A stretch of DNA of 7,878 bases from a virus (taxonomy: Duplodnaviria; Heunggongvirae; Uroviricota; Caudoviricetes). The DNA lies in IMG/VR virus record IMGVR_UViG_2671180283_000022; one strand, 5' to 3'. Shown here piece by piece: positions 2,194 through 7,878 of this stretch (its first letter is position 1; every line of letters begins with the position of its first letter). The notes below the pieces were generated by a model. That model worked only from the letters and a program-made list of their open reading frames with translations, did no database searches and was not told the DNA's origin. A program made the translations under genes and the position numbers.

Positions 2194-2430
2194 TTATTCT
2201 CCAGCGCTTTTAACGTTGATGGTTGTTACCTGTTCCGCTTCGGCAATCTCCCGTTCTGTCAGCGTGGCAAAGTTTGCCGCCGCTGTGGTCATGAATGCGC
2301 TTATCAGTTCGGGATGTTCATTCGCGTATCCTTCCCGCGTGTGGCGGTCTATAACTTTGATTGCCACCTTTAAAGCGTGCTCTGTCATGTCTAACGCTTT
2401 ATATTTTTGCTGTGTTCTGTCTCTGCGCAT
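2194..2430 (-). CDS. hypothetical protein (78 aa from ATG 2430; the track ORF extends to 2625 through the iterons)
   Basis: ATG 2430-2428 with GGTGGGGA about 10 nt upstream; translation MRRDRTQQKYKALDMTEHALKVAIKVIDRHTREGYANEHPELISAFMTTAAANFATLTEREIAEAEQVTTINVKSAGE. The upstream in-frame extension is encoded by iteron repeats and judged non-coding. Confidence 0.4.
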   Translation of the reverse strand: MRRDRTQQKYKALDMTEHALKVAIKVIDRHTREGYANEHPELISAFMTTAAANFATLTEREIAEAEQVTTINVKSAGE

Positions 2431-2440
2431 TTTGGTTATT

Positions 2441-2645
2441 TCCCCACCTATACCCACTTTTACTACCCACTTTTCACAATTCCCCACCTCGTTAAAGGCG
2501 TGGGATTTGTAATTTTTATCATGCTGTTTCATAAGGATTTTTTTGCTCCCCACTTTTTGGGGTGTATACAGGTCGAAAAGTGGGGAAGCGTGTTTAAATT
2601 TTGTTAAATTCCCCATGCTCCCCACTTTTACTTCCCACTTTTTAC
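2441..2645. repeat. iteron cluster, putative replication origin
   Basis: At least 8 copies of core (t)CCCCAC(t)TTT: 2441-2449, 2452-2462, 2465-2475, 2481-2489, 2547-2558, 2619-2630, 2632-2645, one inverted at 2576-2586 (head-to-head with 2547-2558), and a partial copy at 2609-2615. AT-rich stretches at 2506-2545 and 2592-2610; directly 3' of the replication gene. Confidence 0.6.
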
Positions 2646-4051
2646 AGTGGCCCTACATCATCGCCGTCAACATAGATAACGCCGTCTTTTTCCAGCTTGC
2701 CCAGCCAGCGCCGGAAGTGCTTCATTTCGTATCCCATCTTCTTCATGTCATCACGCAACAGCGGGATCGTGCACTTGTCGCCGTTCTGTGTGCGTGAACG
2801 GATGCACCCCCATAGCGCGGTATGGTTTTCCGTCTTGTTGCCTGCCTCCTCGATGCGCTCCAGTTCAACGGGTGGGCGCGGCTCATCCACCACCACCAGC
2901 GACGTAATTAATTCGCCGTCAGCGTCGGTAAAAAGCTCCACAACCCGCAAATCATAGGCAGCCTCTTTGAGTTCCTCCGCGTCCTTCATTTTGGTGCATG
3001 AGATGACCAGCGCTTCGCTTCCTGCGTCCTCTCTGCGTATCCTGTATTCAGCGTCCAGCGATGCACGGAATGCACTGGAACCACGCGCGCCCTTTGTTTC
3101 ATCCTTGCCGGAATGGTGAACCACCAGCACCGTGGCCCCTGTGCGTCGTTTCAGTTCGTCACATCCACGGATAAACGCCCCCATGTCACGGGAGTCATTT
3201 TCGTCATTGCCGCCAAAGCAACGCGCCAGCGTGTCCAGAATAATCATTAGAACCGGTTTACCCGTTTCCCGCTCAACCTGGCTGGCAGCAATAACCAGTT
3301 CATCAACATCAAGCGGGACAGCCGGAAAGATGGGACGGTTTACAAGGTAAAGATTTTTCACCTGCTCCCCGTGCACAACCTCCCAGGCTTTTACACGACG
3401 CGGAACGCCAATACCGCCTTCACCAACCACATAGAGAACAGCGCCATGCGCCACCCTGCGGCCTCCCCACTGGCGGCCCGTGGAAACGTGACACGCCCAC
3501 GATCCGGCAAGGAATGATTTATAGGAACCGCTCGCCCCGTATATGCTGCAAAGCGACGATGCCGGAATAATCCCCTTTACCACGTAATCAAGCTGCGTGT
3601 CGTATCCGGTAGATCCAACGCTCATCGGTAGCGTGGTTTTTCGCTGGGGGATTTTTTTCATGACCAGGCTTTCCCCGCGTTCCCATGCCTCCCTAAGCCG
3701 TGGAAGCTGGTCGTTCCATTCCTCCAGCAATTCGAAATTTTCAGAAATTAGCCGCGCCTCCTGGACTCCGGCGATCGCCAGTTTCGTGGCGATGGTTAAC
3801 AGCTGCGGCTCTTCAATATTTCCGGCGCGTATCACCGTCGCCCTGTATCGCCCATCATCAACAATCTGGAGGTTATCCAGTTCGCTTAACTGATAACACC
3901 CCAGATAAACGGGGGGGACTGGATCGCCTGCTTTTTTGGCCTGTGCAATGATGTAGTGCTCTGCAAATGAGTGCGCATCATTCCCCGCGAAAATAATTGC
4001 TTCGGTGTATTTGTCTTTCGGTAATCGTTTTACGTTCGGTGCAAGTTTCAT
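2642..4051 (-). CDS. replication protein with RecA-like (AAA_25/RepA-type) P-loop ATPase domain and an N-terminal domain possibly primase-associated (469 aa)
   Basis: Walker A GASGSYKS, Walker B-like VLMIILDTL, and ...VLVVHHSGKDETKGARGSSAF... typical of RepA-like helicases; ATG 4051-4049 overlaps the upstream stop (ATGA); iterons lie immediately downstream. Confidence 0.8.
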   Translation of the reverse strand: MKLAPNVKRLPKDKYTEAIIFAGNDAHSFAEHYIIAQAKKAGDPVPPVYLGCYQLSELDNLQIVDDGRYRATVIRAGNIEEPQLLTIATKLAIAGVQEARLISENFELLEEWNDQLPRLREAWERGESLVMKKIPQRKTTLPMSVGSTGYDTQLDYVVKGIIPASSLCSIYGASGSYKSFLAGSWACHVSTGRQWGGRRVAHGAVLYVVGEGGIGVPRRVKAWEVVHGEQVKNLYLVNRPIFPAVPLDVDELVIAASQVERETGKPVLMIILDTLARCFGGNDENDSRDMGAFIRGCDELKRRTGATVLVVHHSGKDETKGARGSSAFRASLDAEYRIRREDAGSEALVISCTKMKDAEELKEAAYDLRVVELFTDADGELITSLVVVDEPRPPVELERIEEAGNKTENHTALWGCIRSRTQNGDKCTIPLLRDDMKKMGYEMKHFRRWLGKLEKDGVIYVDGDDVGPL

Positions 4052-4352: not shown

Positions 4353-4580
4353 TTATTCTCCGGTGTGGGGCGCTTTATTATTTTCGTGAATTGCCATCGC
4401 CTTATCCAGTTCATCAATTACAGGCGATAGTAATGTCTGAACGGCGGCAAATATTAATGATGCAGGTTCTCCACCATCTTCCGGCACGTCTATTAACTTA
4501 ATTAACAGCGCATTCATTTCGCGCGCTTTAGTTAATGCGTTTTCAGAGTGGCTTAATACTTCAAAAGGGACTTTATTCAT
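4353..4580 (-). CDS. hypothetical protein (75 aa from ATG 4580; track start is GTG 4583)
   Basis: ATG 4580-4578 overlaps the TGA of the upstream paralog (TGATG); AGGGGG about 10 nt upstream; no family recognised. Confidence 0.5.
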   Translation of the reverse strand: MNKVPFEVLSHSENALTKAREMNALLIKLIDVPEDGGEPASLIFAAVQTLLSPVIDELDKAMAIHENNKAPHTGE

Positions 4581-4744
4581 CACAAAACCCCCTGACGAAT
4601 ACGGGCGACAAAAATCAGATGTGCGTGCGGCAGCTGGGCGCGTGCTTCGCGCTCAGTGGCAGCGGTAACGGTGAATACATCAATGCAGCTGTGGTGGCAC
4701 TGCATAAAGCGCCAGACAAAGTAAGGGCGTGCGGATACAGCCAT
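4580..4744 (-). CDS. small protein, paralog 1 (54 aa), motif FVWRF...TEREAR...ARIRQG
   Basis: ATG 4744-4742 with AGGAG SD 8 nt upstream; translation MAVSARPYFVWRFMQCHHSCIDVFTVTAATEREARAQLPHAHLIFVARIRQGVL. About 50% identical to paralog 2, with synonymous differences at conserved residues. May belong to the Icd-like/Ash-like small proteins of P4-like satellites (unverified memory). Confidence 0.55.
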   Translation of the reverse strand: MAVSARPYFVWRFMQCHHSCIDVFTVTAATEREARAQLPHAHLIFVARIRQGVL

Positions 4745-5030
4745 GTGAAAGGCTCCTACAGTAATTTTAAGGAGTCTCGCTACTACGCTGCTAAACGGGG
4801 TGGCGAGACGTAACAGGGTTAGCAGACTGGCACTGTAGGAACCAGCGAGCGCAAAGGCTCCCCCGTTACGCCCCGCCATAATGCGGGTATGGGTAGGCTT
4901 ACGGACACAAAAAAACCGCATATCGGAATATAAGCGGCTGTCCGCTACAGTATTCAGGCTGCTAAACCCGGTCGCCATGTGGGCGACGGGGGAAGCATAC
5001 AGCCCCGTTATAATTTTTTGCAAGCGGTTT
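4745..5030 (-). other. spacer between the paralogs, open in paralog-1 frame; probable decayed third copy or N-terminal extension
   Basis: No stop in the paralog-1 frame over about 95 codons; contains paralog-like remnants (...MRFFCVRK..., ...FSSVVARLLKI...) and two copies of GCTGCTAAAC plus CTACAGTA leader-like words (4756-4810 and 4945-4992). Confidence 0.25.
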
Positions 5031-5228
5031 TTACGCATGATGTGACCCCTGACGAATACGGGCGGCGAATACAGCAACACAACCGGACGGGCAACGGCTA
5101 CGCGCTTCGCGTTCCGTCCAGGCGGTTACGTGGATGATTTGAGATTCTCCGGCACTCAGGGCCAGAAAACGCCACACAAAGGCCGTTTGTGTGTGTACAA
5201 GGTGTGGTATATGATTTACGGCAACCAT
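5031..5228 (-). CDS. small protein, paralog 2 (65 aa), same family as paralog 1
   Basis: ATG 5228-5226 with AGGAG SD 5 nt upstream; translation MVAVNHIPHLVHTQTAFVWRFLALSAGESQIIHVTAWTEREARSRCPSGCVAVFAARIRQGSHHA; first gene of the replication operon. Confidence 0.55.
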   Translation of the reverse strand: MVAVNHIPHLVHTQTAFVWRFLALSAGESQIIHVTAWTEREARSRCPSGCVAVFAARIRQGSHHA

Positions 5229-5257
5229 AACGGCTCCTAGTTTACGTTGTTGGTTAG

Positions 5258-5301
5258 AAGCCCTGCGAGTGGTAATGACACTTGCGGGGCTTTGCTTTTT
5301 T
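5258..5301 (+). terminator. plus-strand hairpin terminator in the divergent intergenic region
   Basis: 14-bp stem 5258-5271/5279-5292 with 7-nt loop; the two non-Watson-Crick positions are G-U wobbles on the plus RNA but C-A mismatches on the minus RNA; followed on plus by tgctttttt (5293-5301). Confidence 0.45.
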
Positions 5302-5318
5302 AAGTGCTCTTGTGTTAA

Positions 5319-5362
5319 GGTGACCACCTAACAATGGAAAGGCTAATTCAATAGGTGACCAC
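5319..5362. promoter_or_regulatory. direct repeats GGTGACCAC (5319-5327 and 5354-5362), candidate operator in the divergent promoter region
   Basis: Two exact 9-bp copies 35 bp apart, each followed by a yT...AACAA tail, immediately upstream of the Arc-like gene and facing the replication operon; exact hexamers not resolved. Confidence 0.3.
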
Positions 5363-5554
5363 TTGTCAACAATCAAACGCGATAAAAGCCCTAAAGGGGA
5401 CGGGCAATCCCCACAATTCAGAATGCGAATTTCTCCAGAGCTAAAAGAGCAATTCGACAAAGAAGCACAGAGCGACGGCATAAGCCTAGCCAACTGGCTT
5501 AAAGAGTTGGGGCGCACTGAACTAAAGCGGCGCGGCATAGAACCCAAAGGATAA
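5363..5554 (+). CDS. Arc-like ribbon-helix-helix DNA-binding protein (63 aa with TTG start 5363; alternative ATG 5423)
   Basis: ...SPQFRMRISPELKEQFDKEAQSDGISLANWLKELG... parallels the Arc repressor N-terminal strand and helices (PQFNLRWPREVLDLVRKVAEENGRSVNSEIYQRVMESF); AGGTGA SD 4 nt before the TTG; purine-rich on the plus strand. Confidence 0.55.
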   Translation: MSTIKRDKSPKGDGQSPQFRMRISPELKEQFDKEAQSDGISLANWLKELGRTELKRRGIEPKG

Positions 5555-5611
5555 AAACTATCAGCGCCGTGGTGTGAGGTATTACGGCGCATTGCTATGC
5601 AGGACAACACA

Positions 5612-5785
5612 ATGACTGATAAAGAATTGACCAAAACATTATCACCGGCACGGAAAAGACGGCGCAGAAAGATAGAGCATGAATCAGAAAGATTCGCGCC
5701 ATGTGCTTTTGCCCTTGAGCAATTCCTTAAAGAGTATAGGGAAAAGCGCTCATTGCAGGTATGGCAACGAACTGAACCAGACTGA
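5612..5785 (+). CDS. small highly basic hypothetical protein (57 aa from ATG 5612; 62 aa from ATG 5597)
   Basis: AGGA SD 7 nt before ATG 5612; translation MTDKELTKTLSPARKRRRRKIEHESERFAPCAFALEQFLKEYREKRSLQVWQRTEPD; followed by a terminator; no family recognised. Confidence 0.35.
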   Translation: MTDKELTKTLSPARKRRRRKIEHESERFAPCAFALEQFLKEYREKRSLQVWQRTEPD

Positions 5786-5879
5786 TTGCATTGCCCACCA
5801 GCCTGATAGCGGCTATCATCCCCGTGCTTATGTTTGGGATCACATACACATAAGGCGCAGCGGGTTAATTGTTCAGAAA

Positions 5880-5907
5880 GGCGGCTCCATATCGGGGCCG
5901 CTTTTTT
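5880..5907 (+). terminator. rho-independent terminator, probably bidirectional
   Basis: Stem gcggctcc(5881-5888)/ggggccgc(5894-5901) with loop atatc, then tttttt (5902-5907) on plus; on minus it is followed by a weaker UUUCU tail and sits 27 nt past the alpA stop. Confidence 0.55.
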
Positions 5908-5933
5908 CGTGTTTGTCATATCTGTGATACCCG

Positions 5934-6140
5934 TTAAGCAGCCGTTCCGCGTGCTTCCTGTTCGCGTTCTTTCTGCCAGGCCAACACATCATCCTCATAC
6001 CATCCGCGACGGCGTAAACCAACGCGAAAACCCTGCGGAAATTCTCCGGCGTTGATCATGCTTTGCAGCGTGCTGTCTGCCTTGATGTGGATAATTTTTT
6101 TTACTTCCTGGCGAAAGATAATTTTTCTGATTGCTTCCAT
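5934..6140 (-). CDS. alpA: AlpA-family transcriptional regulator / excisionase-like HTH protein (68 aa)
   Basis: ATG 6140-6138 with AAGGT SD; ...IKADSTLQSMINAGEFPQGFRVGLRRRGWYEDDVLAWQ... fits the AlpA HTH pattern (S-T-hydrophobic, G-x-F-P, G-W). Confidence 0.75.
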   Translation of the reverse strand: MEAIRKIIFRQEVKKIIHIKADSTLQSMINAGEFPQGFRVGLRRRGWYEDDVLAWQKEREQEARGTAA

Positions 6141-6636: not shown

Positions 6637-7878
6637 CTACACGGCTCGGATACCCCTTTTACCACTGGCGAGGGTTACGCCCGTCGCCGCAGCCTCGACA
6701 AATTCGCCCCACCAGCGCATCAGCACGATGCGTTTTTCTATGTAGTTGCTCCGGTTGTATGCCCGTCTAACTTCGTTGGTGTCGACGTGGGCAAGTGCCG
6801 CCTCTATTACGTCCGGCTCGAATCCTTCCTCGTTCGCTGCTGTGCTGAATATGGCGCGTAATCCATGAGACACCAGCACGCCAGCGAATCCCATACGCCG
6901 CAATGCTGCGTTAGCTGTCTGGCTGTTCATCGGCTGCTGTGGGTCTTTCAGACTTGGGAAAACGTAATTGCGGTGGTGGCTGATTGGTTTCATGGCCTCC
7001 AGCACCGCCATAGCCTGACCGGAAAGCGGGATAACGTGATCCCTGCGCATCTTCATGCGTCCGGCAGGTATCGTCCATTGCTTCGCGTCCAGGTTGATTT
7101 CATCCCACCGCGTTGATGACGCTTCGGCGGGACGGGTTACGGTCAGTAACTGCCATTCAATCAGTAATCTGGTCTGCCGTTCTGTTGCCGATACTGATAA
7201 AGCCTGCATAAGCTCCGGCAGCTGTTCGGGGCGGATTGTTGGCATATGTTTTTTTACAGGTGAGGGAAACGCCTTACGCACATTCATAGCCGGATTGGCA
7301 TCAATCAGCCCACTGTTGGCGGCGTAATCCATTACCTCATTAACGCGCTGTAAAACCCGCTTGAGTGTTTCCAGGTTGCCGCGCTCCTTGATGGGGGTAA
7401 GCACTTCAACGAACCTTCGGGCGGTGAGGGTATCTATTGGCGTGTTGCCGATGAACGGGAATACATATTTATCCAGCGAACGCCAGATGTCTTTAATCGT
7501 GTTGGGGGCCAGATTCTGGCTGATTTTCACCTGGTACCATGCCGCCGCCACATTTTCGAACGTGTTCCCTTGTCTTCGGGCCTCTGTCTCTCTTTTTTGC
7601 CTCTCGTGGTCCTGCGGGTCAGTTCCGGCACTGATTAACGTCCTGTACTCGCTACGGCGTTTTCTGGCATCAGCCAGGGAAACATCTTCAAGCGATCCAA
7701 AACTCAGCAATATTCTTTTTTTGTCCGATGGTCGGTAGTAGGAAAATCTCCAGAGTTTTGATCCAGACGGTTTGACCAGGAGAAAAAGCCCTCCGCCGTC
7801 CTGCAGGGTGTACTCCTTTTGCGCTGGTCTGGCTGCTTTGATCTGCACTGTGGTTAATGGGTGTGTTTTTCTCGCCAT
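6637..7878 (-). CDS. int: P4-type tyrosine integrase (413 aa, complete; ATG is the last triplet of the window)
   Basis: N-terminal arm-binding signature ...LTTVQIKAARPAQKEYTLQDGGGLFLLVKPSGSKLWRFSYY...; C-terminal catalytic region with ...HGLRA... and ...RAYNRSNY... (putative catalytic Tyr); stop TAG at 6639-6637. Confidence 0.9.
   Translation of the reverse strand: MARKTHPLTTVQIKAARPAQKEYTLQDGGGLFLLVKPSGSKLWRFSYYRPSDKKRILLSFGSLEDVSLADARKRRSEYRTLISAGTDPQDHERQKRETEARRQGNTFENVAAAWYQVKISQNLAPNTIKDIWRSLDKYVFPFIGNTPIDTLTARRFVEVLTPIKERGNLETLKRVLQRVNEVMDYAANSGLIDANPAMNVRKAFPSPVKKHMPTIRPEQLPELMQALSVSATERQTRLLIEWQLLTVTRPAEASSTRWDEINLDAKQWTIPAGRMKMRRDHVIPLSGQAMAVLEAMKPISHHRNYVFPSLKDPQQPMNSQTANAALRRMGFAGVLVSHGLRAIFSTAANEEGFEPDVIEAALAHVDTNEVRRAYNRSNYIEKRIVLMRWWGEFVEAAATGVTLASGKRGIRAV

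What the first reader, a model, noticed from the sequence alone, without database searches (positions are those of the whole stretch)
5258..5907. Insulated plus-strand cassette: Arc-like RHH protein plus a small basic protein, opposite to the rest of the element
This is the only unit on the plus strand. It sits between alpA and the replication operon, is closed by a hairpin terminator at 5880-5907 and preceded by a plus-strand hairpin at 5258-5301, and shares a divergent region with the replication operon that carries two exact GGTGACCAC repeats. The first gene has an Arc-like strand-helix-helix signature; the second is a 57-aa, arginine-rich protein with no family I recognise. The position resembles a master repressor divergent from the replication operon (as Stl is in staphylococcal islands), but an RHH gene followed by a small effector is also the layout of toxin-antitoxin and some anti-phage modules.
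Basis: partly seen in the sequence, partly recalled or inferred. Interest (0 to 1): 0.7.

Follow-up and report, generated by a model that had tools for sequence, protein, structure and literature searches.

The report
Arc-like repressor cassette of a phage satellite
A small gene pair hidden on the "wrong" strand of an E. coli phage-satellite island encodes an Arc-type DNA-binding protein whose own private binding sites sit on the promoter of the island's replication genes, making it the best candidate for the repressor that has so far been missing in Gram-negative satellites of this kind.

Summary
Window 5363-5554 (+) encodes a 63-aa ribbon-helix-helix protein. Its closest solved relative, by sequence and by fold, is P22 Arc. 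Window 5612-5785 (+) encodes a 57-aa orphan protein with a basic tail and a single helix. Both hairpins are plus-strand terminators.

The two AGGTGACCAC repeats bracket the -10 elements of two conserved face-to-face promoters. One runs leftward into the Icd-like / C4 RNA / replication operon. The other runs rightward into the RHH gene.

Across about 75 related loci and nine genera, each RHH allele carries its own repeat pair at these positions. Alleles with the same beta-strand residues have the same repeats, even in different genera. This operator-repressor co-variation supports the repressor reading. The toxin-antitoxin reading is not supported: there is no HicA, the RHH occurs alone outside Escherichia, and there is no defence-profile hit.

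That frame is also kept open by selection. It looks like the P4 eta/kil read-through ORF, so the cassette lies antisense inside it.

The element is a cf-PICI, and EcCIEDL933 carries the same allele. EcCICFT073 carries the same module with a YlcI/YnfO-type first gene. The function of ORF2 remains unknown. Nothing here has been tested experimentally.

The parts
5363..5554 (+). Arc-like ribbon-helix-helix gene (63 aa, TTG start). Proposed repressor of the leftward early promoter and of its own promoter.
   Evidence: ORF. PHROG 228 E 5e-7. PDB Arc E 0.0025. Foldseek top hits are Arc. Full-length orthologues at 62-90% identity in many Enterobacterales, with the same start position as TTG or ATG. 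pN/pS is lower in the sense frame than in the antisense frame in 15/15 pairs.
5612..5785 (+). ORF2: 57-aa orphan protein with an arginine-rich disordered N-terminal tail and one long helix. Function unknown.
   Evidence: Invariant Met and in-frame indels. SD AGGA at 5601-5604. Synonymous third-position and Leu CTT/TTA/CTA changes within a conserved motif. pN/pS is lower in sense than in antisense in 16/20 pairs. PHROG 21027. Tiny family. AlphaFold model: tail 1-28, helix 29-59.
5318..5327 (.). Operator O2 (AGGTGACCAC). Overlaps the rightward -10/+1 and lies at about +5 to +15 of the leftward transcript.
   Evidence: Exact 10-mer, one of only two copies in the window. Allele-specific repeat at this position in all related loci.
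5353..5362 (.). Operator O1 (AGGTGACCAC). Lies in the -35/-10 spacer of the leftward promoter and also contains the RHH Shine-Dalgarno sequence.
5340..5369 (-). Leftward promoter P_L (PLE-like): -35 TTGACA (5369-5364, overlapping the RHH start codon), 18-nt spacer, -10 TAGCCT (5345-5340), inferred start near 5333.
   Evidence: TTGAC(A/G) is invariant and a TAnnnT hexamer lies 17-18 nt downstream in every lineage aligned. Not picked up by the simple scan because the -10 matches only 3 of 6.
5292..5321 (+). Rightward promoter P_R for the cassette: -35 TTGCTT (5292-5297), 18-nt spacer, extended -10 TGtTAAGGT (5313-5321), inferred start near 5328.
   Evidence: TTGnTT, 18 nt, then TGnTAnnGT is conserved in E. 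coli, Xenorhabdus, Yersinia, Trabulsiella, Proteus and Morganella (read from the sequences).
5257..5301 (+). Hairpin 1 plus T run: a plus-strand intrinsic terminator immediately upstream of P_R. It may end a short antisense RNA.
   Evidence: Stronger on the plus strand in 11/11 lineages. 8 of 10 pairs show compensatory changes.
5564..5590 (+). Intercistronic hairpin between the RHH gene and ORF2. It has no T run.
   Evidence: z -1.8, weak on its own. Conserved with G.U pairs that form only on the plus strand (sequences).
5875..5907 (+). Terminator closing the cassette.
   Evidence: Conserved with compensatory changes and plus-strand bias in 9/9 versions. Homology with O157 islands ends here.
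5254..5919 (-). Eta-like read-through ORF (221 aa; PGAP WP_001329530.1), antisense to the whole cassette. It starts 14 nt after the alpA stop and ends 26 nt before the Icd-like ATG.
   Evidence: Annotation. The frame is open for 201-607 codons in 7 E. coli and 7 of 9 other-genus loci, usually in frame with the Icd-like gene. Spacers hold 0-2 stops in this frame against 8-31 and 3-23 in the other two minus frames. No family hit.
5934..6140 (-). alpA (Vis-like activator/excisionase), upstream of the eta-like ORF.
   Evidence: Pfam AlpA 17.6 bits, below the cut-off. PHROG 66 E 5.5e-7. PGAP calls it an HTH regulator.
5028..5228 (-). First Icd-like (Kil-position) gene, the first cistron downstream of P_L.
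   Evidence: NCBIfam NF033153, 64.6 bits.
4796..5000 (-). C4/CI-type immunity RNA (4796-4883) with its a1/b1 target and an isrK-like element (4909-5000).
   Evidence: Rfam C4 71.5 bits (cut-off 45). c4-a1b1 45.5 bits (cut-off 46.7).
5187..5301 (+). Hypothetical cis-antisense sRNA unit: -35 TTGTGT 5187-5192, -10 TATGAT 5210-5215, RNA of about 5222-5301 ending at hairpin 1. It would be antisense to the Icd-like SD and start codon.
   Evidence: A TAnnnT hexamer, often with an extended TG, sits at the same place in all lineages. Hairpin 1 is a plus-strand terminator. No Rfam family matches. This part is inference only.

Best explanation
The window is part of a capsid-forming PICI, a type of phage satellite. 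The plus-strand unit is the island's protein immunity module.

Proposed mechanism:
1. A conserved extended -10 promoter (P_R, start about 5328) transcribes the RHH gene and ORF2. The transcript ends at the terminator at 5875-5907.
2. The 63-aa Arc-like RHH protein binds as dimers to two palindromic sites (AGGTGACCAC at 5318-5327 and 5353-5362). These sites bracket the -10 elements of P_R and of the face-to-face leftward promoter P_L (-35 at 5369-5364, start about 5333).
3. Occupancy of the sites shuts P_L and autoregulates P_R. P_L otherwise drives the Icd-like gene, the C4 immunity RNA and the replication genes.
4. This protein layer sits on top of a P4/P1-type RNA immunity (C4 RNA).
5. On induction, AlpA-dependent transcription from upstream of alpA reads leftward through the cassette in antisense. 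The conserved eta-like ORF (5919-5254) is translated on this transcript. As in P4, that translation would protect the transcript from Rho and from the RNA immunity. The convergent transcription would also lower RHH synthesis.

Shown here: the fold and family of the RHH, the conserved promoters, the allele-specific operators, the plus-strand terminators, and selection on the minus-strand frame.

Inferred: actual DNA binding, the sign of regulation, and the read-through/interference step.

ORF2 is an Escherichia/Shigella-specific accessory product of the same transcript, a basic tail plus one helix. Its role is unknown. My weak guess is that it is a nucleic-acid- or partner-binding modulator, not a toxin.
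For: Element identity: 99.7% identical to an island at tRNA-Pro in E. coli MS 21-1 that carries int, alpA, a RepA helicase, capsid and terS. The cassette is 98% identical in O157 Sakai Sp7 and EDL933, the prototype cf-PICI (bioRxiv 10.1101/2022.09.08.507074).

RHH family and fold. Arc's PQFxLR strand aligns with PQFRMR.

Operators:
- In alignment A2 every locus has its own repeat pair, one copy in the -35/-10 spacer of an invariant TTGAC(A/G) promoter and one just past the -10.
- Across about 75 unique loci each first-gene allele maps to one repeat sequence.
- QFRMRI-type proteins keep GTGGTCACCT twice at 35-bp spacing in E. coli, Xenorhabdus and Proteus, in otherwise diverged DNA. Yersinia changes both copies together, to GTGGCCACCT.
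- TFQIRI-type proteins (E. coli A36, Pantoea, Morganella) share a GTACGTAC core.
- (L/M)FN(V/L)RL-type proteins (Trabulsiella, Morganella) share GTATAGACC.
- The PFHMRI type has GTGTACACC.
- The varying residues correspond to Arc's base-contacting Gln9 and Asn11 (alignment; residue roles from the Arc-operator structure 1PAR, my own knowledge).

Terminators: plus-strand-specific folding.

RNA immunity: Rfam C4 at 71.5 bits.

Eta-like ORF. The P4 precedent is summarised in PMC10111431.

AlpA: it activates expression of the ORF downstream of alpA in EcCICFT073 (PMC6092414). EcCICFT073 has the same opposite-strand pair.
Against: There is no experiment: no binding, no mapped transcription start, no phenotype.

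The operators are physically adjacent to the gene, so allele-repeat association alone could reflect linkage. The argument therefore rests on the duplication of the site, the concerted changes in both copies, and the cross-genus matches.

The P_L -10 in this allele (TAGCCT) is weak, and the simple promoter scan did not call either promoter.

Pfam Arc and HicB scores are below their curated cut-offs.

Operator spacing varies from 23 to 35 bp, so a single cooperative geometry is not obvious.

AlpA over-expression alone induces EcCICFT073. The RHH therefore cannot be an absolute block.

The YlcI/YnfO-type first genes are only weakly linked to the RHH profile (hhalign E 5.7e-4, probability 29%).
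Confidence: 0.62

Rival explanations
1. Type II toxin-antitoxin (or other abortive/defence) pair: the RHH is a HicB-like antitoxin that autoregulates its operon, and ORF2 is a small toxin or effector.
For: Relatives are named 'HicB family antitoxin' by NCBI. Pfam HicB scores 20.4 bits against a cut-off of 21. The order 'RHH gene, then small gene, then terminator' is a common TA layout. Satellites often carry defence genes.
Against: ORF2 hits no HicA or any other toxin family, and no PADLOC model matches. The 63-aa protein lacks the HicB N-terminal domain. In at least six other genera the RHH stands alone at the same place. An identical ORF2 is combined with more than 10 different first-gene alleles that have two different C-terminal tails, so there is no cognate co-variation. 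The operators sit on the core of the leftward replication-operon promoter, not only on the cassette's own promoter.
Confidence: 0.06
2. The plus-strand ORFs are shadows. The real gene is the single minus-strand ORF that RefSeq annotates (5254-5919), in line with the rest of the element.
For: PGAP and the Sakai annotation call it. The minus frame is strongly depleted of stops even in the spacers between the plus ORFs. It is usually in frame with the Icd-like gene. Wobble positions of the two frames coincide, so codon periodicity cannot separate them cleanly.
Against: The plus ORF has an Arc fold and profile matches. The minus product matches nothing and is Ser/Cys/Arg-rich. Sense pN/pS is lower in 15/15 (RHH) and 16/20 (ORF2) pairs. 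The RHH is intact in Xenorhabdus budapestensis and Yersinia, where the minus frame is broken. The start codon, SD and three RNA hairpins are plus-strand specific. PGAP itself annotates the plus-strand pair in EcCICFT073 and many other islands. The data fit both strands being used, not the minus strand alone.
Confidence: 0.05
3. The RHH is a DNA-binding protein at these sites, but its main job is not silencing the replication operon. It could be an activator or partner of P_R only, an excision-directionality or packaging cofactor, or a CopG-like copy-number controller that acts after induction.
For: RHH proteins fill all of these roles (CopG, ParG, NikA and AmrZ appear among the fold hits). YlcI/YnfO-type relatives in lambdoid prophages have no known function. 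AlpA alone can induce the island.
Against: One site lies in the -35/-10 spacer of P_L and the other at its +5 to +15. These are classic repressing positions, and they are kept in every lineague examined. There is no site near alpA, int or the iteron origin.
Confidence: 0.17
4. ORF2 is the functional centre of the cassette: an arginine-rich RNA-binding peptide, N/Nun-like, that acts on helper-phage or island transcripts. The RHH would merely regulate it.
For: ORF2 has an RKRRRRK tract in a disordered tail followed by one confident helix. The helpers of E. coli PICIs are lambdoid phages. ORF2 is conserved while the first gene diversifies.
Against: No homology to N or Nun, or to any family. ORF2 is absent from the same module in other genera. 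Its constraint is weak (pN/pS 0.24-0.6) and its C-terminus is variable and frameshifted in some alleles.
Confidence: 0.1

Closest known systems
P22 immI repressors Arc and Mnt (ribbon-helix-helix)
   Same: Best sequence and structure match is P22 Arc. It is a small RHH protein with a PQFxxR recognition strand. Its operators overlap promoter core elements of opposed promoters in an immunity region. A small antisense RNA (sar) in P22 parallels the hypothetical antisense RNA here (P22 facts from my own knowledge).
   Different: Only about 25-28% identity, and Pfam Arc is below its cut-off. There are two separate palindromic sites 23-35 bp apart rather than one 21-bp tetramer operator. The controlled operon carries Icd-like, C4 RNA and replication genes, not an antirepressor. 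The gene is embedded antisense in a read-through ORF.
Satellite phage P4 immunity/early region (PLL-vis-eta/kil-CI RNA)
   Same: The order is the same: alpA/vis, then a long ORF that starts upstream of an internal promoter and ends at (or, in relatives, as) a small division-inhibitor-type gene, then a C4/CI RNA with its target. The logic of translation-protected read-through is summarised in PMC10111431.
   Different: P4 has no protein repressor and no opposite-strand gene between vis and the cI/eta region. There is no detectable sequence similarity between the Icd-like protein and P4. In this window the long ORF stops 26 nt before the Icd-like ATG instead of being nested with it.
SaPI Stl / Gram-positive PICI Rpr master repressors
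   Same: A repressor gene lies opposite to the replication operon in a PICI, next to the int side. It would keep the island quiescent (role described in PMC6092414).
   Different: Stl proteins are HTH repressors relieved by helper-phage proteins. This one is an RHH, it coexists with an AlpA activator and RNA immunity, and no helper-encoded anti-repressor is known.
CopG / antisense RNA II copy control of plasmid pMV158
   Same: An RHH repressor of a replication-operon promoter is combined with an antisense RNA that blocks translation. CopG is among the fold hits (plasmid biology from my own knowledge).
   Different: CopG is co-transcribed with repB from the promoter it represses. Here the repressor is transcribed in the opposite direction from a face-to-face promoter.
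HicB antitoxins (HicAB)
   Same: The C-terminal RHH DNA-binding domain is the basis of the NCBI name for relatives.
   Different: There is no HicA partner and no HicB N-terminal domain, and the RHH stands alone in most genera.

Membership tests
Arc/MetJ-type ribbon-helix-helix DNA-binding proteins | beta-alpha-alpha fold of about 45 residues | tested here: met
   The AlphaFold model (pLDDT 82.8) has an extended segment at 18-24 and helices at 25-37 and 42-56. All top Foldseek PDB hits are RHH proteins; the first seven are P22 Arc (TM to target 0.70-0.89).
Arc/MetJ-type ribbon-helix-helix DNA-binding proteins | Sequence-profile membership | tested here: inconclusive
   PHROG 228 Arc-like, E 5e-7. 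Family profile vs PDB Arc, E 0.0025. However, Pfam Arc scores 12.4 bits against a cut-off of 20.4, and Pfam HicB 20.4 against 21.
Arc/MetJ-type ribbon-helix-helix DNA-binding proteins | N-terminal strand whose alternate side chains read the bases, so specificity changes with those residues | tested here: met
   Positions 18 and 20 (Q/R, T/Q, L-M/N, P/H) change together with the repeat sequence in nine genera. These positions align with Arc Q9 and N11.
Arc/MetJ-type ribbon-helix-helix DNA-binding proteins | Dimerisation and sequence-specific DNA binding | not testable with these tools
   Needs EMSA or footprinting on 5300-5375.
HicAB toxin-antitoxin | Adjacent HicA toxin gene | tested here: not met
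   ORF2 and its neighbours have no HicA or other toxin hit. In other genera there is no second plus-strand gene at all.
HicAB toxin-antitoxin | HicB N-terminal (RNase H-like) toxin-binding domain | tested here: not met
   The protein is 63 aa and consists only of a tail plus the RHH.
P4-type RNA immunity region | C4/CI antisense RNA with an upstream target | tested here: met
   Rfam C4 scores 71.5 bits (cut-off 45). The a1b1 target scores 45.5 bits, just under its cut-off of 46.7.
P4-type RNA immunity region | Long ORF (eta) that starts upstream of the internal promoter, follows the alpA/vis gene, and has the small kil-type gene as its terminal part | tested here: inconclusive
   In the window the ORF 5919-5254 follows alpA but ends 26 nt before the Icd-like ATG, in another frame. 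In most relatives it is in frame with the Icd-like gene. No sequence homology to P4 eta/kil was found.
P4-type RNA immunity region | Immunity exerted by RNA alone, with no protein repressor | tested here: not met
   An Arc-like gene with promoter-core operators is present here and absent from P4.
SaPI/PICI Stl-Rpr master repressor | Repressor gene opposed to the replication operon near int | tested here: met
   Gene order is int, alpA, then the (+) RHH facing the (-) Icd-like/replication operon.
SaPI/PICI Stl-Rpr master repressor | Relief by binding of a helper-phage protein | not testable with these tools
   No inducer for Gram-negative PICIs is reported in the library searched.
Capsid-forming PICI (identity of the element) | int, alpA and a replication protein, plus its own capsid and terS genes, in a small island at a dedicated att site | tested here: met
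   Pfam integrase domains and AAA_25 helicase. HK97 capsid and terS hits. Island at tRNA-Pro in MS 21-1, and Sakai Sp7 with head, protease and portal genes.

The most novel reading that the evidence does not exclude
The Arc-like (and YlcI/YnfO-type) first gene is the long-sought master repressor of Gram-negative PICIs. It would be a hypervariable immunity determinant with at least ten operator specificities. It would be read against a P4-like eta ORF on the other strand, so that AlpA-driven, translation-protected antisense transcription flips the switch. Helper phages (or ORF2) would act on it as they act on Stl in SaPIs. A third layer would be a cis-antisense sRNA ending at hairpin 1.
Probability: 0.3. 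Interest if true: 0.8.

Novelty: new variant of a known kind. Interest (0 to 1): 0.66.

Why it matters
[quoted passage not shown] No later paper in the library searched fills that gap.

This module is present in both experimental models. EcCIEDL933 carries the window's allele, and EcCICFT073 carries a YlcI/YnfO-type allele with the same ORF2. About a quarter to a third of complete E. coli genomes carry some version (1316-1704 of 5426). The hypothesis can therefore be tested at once with existing strains.

It also matters for annotation. RefSeq places a hypothetical gene on the wrong strand, or on only one of two used strands, in many genomes, and names relatives 'HicB antitoxin'.

The allele-specific operator sets offer a ready-made panel of orthogonal small repressors. 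They would also explain immunity and compatibility groups among co-resident satellites.

The conserved antisense overlap with an eta-like read-through ORF is a rare, testable case of two-strand coding with a regulatory rationale.

Tried and rejected
- Defence and TA profiles (PADLOC, Pfam, NCBIfam) on both proteins and on the minus ORF gave nothing beyond the borderline HicB RHH domain.
- tblastn of ORF2 against 50,697 phage records found no match.
- An exhaustive profile search for ORF2 found nine small clusters plus one spurious repeat protein. No fold search was run for ORF2 because a single helix is uninformative.
- Codon-position tests cannot cleanly separate the two strands because their wobble positions coincide. 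I relied instead on stop-codon depletion, broken frames in some genera, G.U asymmetry and family matches.
- I first took 'all plus genes are in the same frame' as independent evidence for the minus ORF. I dropped it when one search showed that first-gene alleles share the same 3' junction with the ORF2 block.
- I looked for operator copies near alpA, int and the origin and found none.
- tblastn of the Icd-like protein against phages gave no P4 hit, so the P4 comparison is by layout only.
- The Forti et al. 1999 paper (PMC94026) is not held. I cite it through PMC10111431.
- YlcI/YnfO literature search found nothing functional.
- The rnk_pseudo Rfam hit at 5181-5301 (26 bits, E 0.41) was dismissed as a terminator match.
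Full report
**What the window is**

Almost all genes run leftward. In order they are:
- a tyrosine integrase (6637-7878);
- a small ORF;
- an AlpA-like regulator (5934-6140);
- two Icd-like genes (5028-5228 and 4580-4744) flanking a C4-type antisense RNA with its a1/b1 target (Rfam 71.5 and 45.5 bits);
- a DUF4222 gene;
- a RepA-type AAA_25 helicase;
- an iteron field (CCCACTTTT, 2440-2650);
- a small terminase and an HK97-type capsid gene.

The stretch 5200-5950 is 99.7% identical to an island at tRNA-Pro in E. coli MS 21-1. It is 98% identical, up to position 5907, to prophage-like element Sp7 of O157:H7 Sakai and to EDL933. EDL933 is the host of EcCIEDL933, the prototype capsid-forming PICI.

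**The observation**

The two plus-strand ORFs, the two hairpins and the two repeats are all present at the stated coordinates.

The 10-mer AGGTGACCAC occurs exactly twice in 7878 bases, 35 bp apart, and nowhere else.

Both hairpins fold much better as plus-strand RNA: -27.3 vs -16.3 and -21.7 vs -14.0 kcal/mol. G.U pairs on the plus strand become C.A mismatches on the other strand. The same bias is seen in 11 of 11 and 9 of 9 diverged versions. Eight of ten pairs of hairpin 1 show compensatory changes. They are therefore plus-strand terminators.

**Which strand codes**

RefSeq annotates 5254-5919 as one minus-strand 221-aa hypothetical protein. The Sakai annotation has a 247-aa version. This needed testing.

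Evidence for the plus strand:
- The 63-aa product is conserved over its full length (62-90% identity) in Xenorhabdus, Yersinia, Trabulsiella, Pantoea, Providencia, Proteus, Morganella, Dickeya, Erwinia and others. The start position is the same in all, as TTG or ATG.
- Sense pN/pS is lower than antisense pN/pS in 15/15 pairs.
- It matches PHROG 228 'Arc-like repressor' (E 5e-7).
- Its family profile finds P22 Arc in the PDB (E 0.0025, in register over 48 residues).
- Its AlphaFold model (pLDDT 82.8) has Arc structures as its best matches.
- ORF2 has an invariant Met at 5612, an SD, in-frame indels, and a conserved ERFAPCAFALExFLKEY motif maintained through synonymous changes.

The minus product matches nothing and looks like an antisense translation.

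**The minus frame is not a trivial shadow**

- In seven diverged E. coli islands the minus frame is open for 336-607 codons. It runs from next to alpA or a Bro gene, through the antisense of the plus genes and all spacers, and usually continues in frame into the Icd-like gene.
- In the spacers alone it has 0-2 stops. The other two minus frames have 8-31 and 3-23 stops there.
- Seven of nine loci from other genera show the same pattern. In Xenorhabdus budapestensis and Yersinia the frame is broken while the RHH gene is intact.
- This matches what is described for satellite P4. There, eta starts upstream of the internal promoter PLE, is coupled to the alpA homologue vis, ends as kil, and its translation prevents premature termination of transcripts from the upstream promoter (summary in PMC10111431; Forti et al. 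1999, not held).

I conclude that both strands are used. The cassette lies antisense inside an eta-like read-through ORF.

**What the RHH does**

I aligned the spacer between the Icd-like start and the first plus gene from nine E. coli islands. The alignment shows:
- an invariant TTGAC(A/G) on the minus strand;
- a TAnnnT hexamer 17-18 nt downstream of it;
- in every locus, a private pair of repeats, one copy in the spacer next to the -35 and one just past the -10.

In the window the -35 is 5369-5364, overlapping the RHH start codon. The -10 is 5345-5340.

Across about 75 unique loci from IMG/VR and E. coli genomes, each first-gene allele goes with one repeat sequence.

The cross-genus test is the strong one:

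| Recognition strand | Where found | Repeat |
|---|---|---|
| QFRMRI | E. coli, Xenorhabdus, Proteus | GTGGTCACCT, twice, 35 bp apart, in otherwise diverged DNA |
| QFKMRI | Yersinia | GTGGCCACCT; both copies changed together |
| TFQIRI | E. coli A36, Pantoea, Morganella | GTACGTAC core |
| (L/M)FN(V/L)RL | Trabulsiella, Morganella | GTATAGACC |
| PFHMRI | E. coli | GTGTACACC |

The varying residues align with Arc's base-contacting positions.

A second conserved promoter faces the first. It has TTGnTT immediately after hairpin 1, an 18-nt spacer, and an extended -10 TGnTAnnGT (window 5292-5297 and 5313-5321). Its last bases are the first bases of the left operator (sequences).

The two inferred starts (about 5328 rightward and about 5333 leftward) make the promoters mutually exclusive. 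An RHH bound at both sites would shut the leftward promoter and throttle its own.

**The rest of the switch (inference)**

- AlpA is an activator required for induction, and it raises expression of the ORF downstream of alpA in EcCICFT073 (PMC6092414).
- Transcription from upstream of alpA would run antisense through ORF2 and the RHH gene. The cassette's terminator is weak in that direction.
- That transcript would be covered by ribosomes on the eta-like ORF. It would enter the Icd-like/C4/replication operon past both the protein and the RNA immunity, as P4's PLL transcripts do.
- Hairpin 1 is a plus-strand terminator placed upstream of P_R. A TAnnnT hexamer, often with an extended TG, sits at the same place inside the first codons of the leftward gene in all lineages. 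This suggests an RNA of about 80 nt, antisense to the Icd-like SD and ATG. This is a lead, not a result.

**ORF2**

- It is found only in Escherichia and Shigella islands.
- It is always the last plus-strand gene.
- An identical ORF2 is combined with many first-gene alleles.
- It is predicted to be a disordered arginine-rich tail plus one helix.
- It has no family, no toxin or defence signature, and is absent from the same module in other genera.

Its function is unknown. It is not needed for the basic RHH-operator design.

**Comparison and novelty**

- The protein is a new member of the Arc/Mnt kind.
- The surrounding logic is P4-like, but P4 itself has no protein repressor and no opposite-strand gene there.
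- A repressor facing the replication operon recalls Stl of SaPIs, but the fold and the coexistence with AlpA differ.
- The same opposite-strand pair is annotated in the model island EcCICFT073: a YlcI/YnfO-type first gene plus a 57-aa ORF. The YlcI type is only weakly linked to the RHH profile.
- I found no paper in the library that assigns a function to this module or identifies a repressor for Gram-negative PICIs. Paper PMC13612085 merely lists YlcI/YnfO and HicB as accessory genes.

**Verdict**

The repressor interpretation is well supported by comparative evidence, but it is untested. The TA/defence alternative is unlikely. The cassette is not insulated; it is interlocked with a conserved antisense read-through ORF.

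Noticed in passing
window 5254-5919 (-), and L008-L015, L097-L100: A long minus-strand ORF antisense to the whole cassette is kept free of stops, even in the spacers. In most relatives it runs in frame into the Icd-like gene. This is a likely analogue of P4 eta/kil. RefSeq annotates it as the only gene here.
   Followed up: yes
window 4796-5000 (-): A C4/CI-type immunity RNA (Rfam 71.5 bits) with an a1/b1 target and an isrK-like terminator element lies between two Icd-like paralogues (5028-5228 and 4580-4744). In MS 21-1, PGAP annotates this stretch as a frameshifted pseudogene.
   Followed up: partly
window 5187-5301 (+): A possible cis-antisense sRNA of about 80 nt. A conserved TATGAT-type -10 sits inside the first codons of the Icd-like gene. 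A small stem-loop would present the anti-SD sequence in its loop. Hairpin 1 would serve as the terminator.
   Followed up: partly
window 5564-5590 (+): A conserved hairpin lies between the RHH stop and the ORF2 SD. Its G.U pairs form only on the plus strand, and it has no T run. It may be a processing or stability element.
   Followed up: no
window 2430-2655: A field of CCCACTTTT / AAAAGTGGG iterons in both orientations lies just downstream of the RepA helicase gene. It is probably the island's replication origin. It overlaps the 5' part of the 143-aa ORF 2194-2625 (PHROG 1231).
   Followed up: partly
L016-L095, L009-L015 (E. coli islands): The first plus-strand gene is hypervariable, with at least four Arc-like and seven or more YlcI/YnfO-type alleles. 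All variants join the conserved ORF2 block at the same 3' junction. The long YlcI forms carry a 42-residue insertion.
   Followed up: partly
window 5907/5908; L002 (Sakai Sp7): Homology between the window's island and the O157 islands stops exactly at the end of the cassette terminator. In Sakai no alpA gene is annotated in the 600 bp that follow. This is a mosaic junction.
   Followed up: no
L010, L014, L015, L097-L099: Many relatives carry Bro-N, AntA/AntB or Rha genes between alpA and the cassette. The eta-like open frame then begins inside, or right after, the last of these genes.
   Followed up: no
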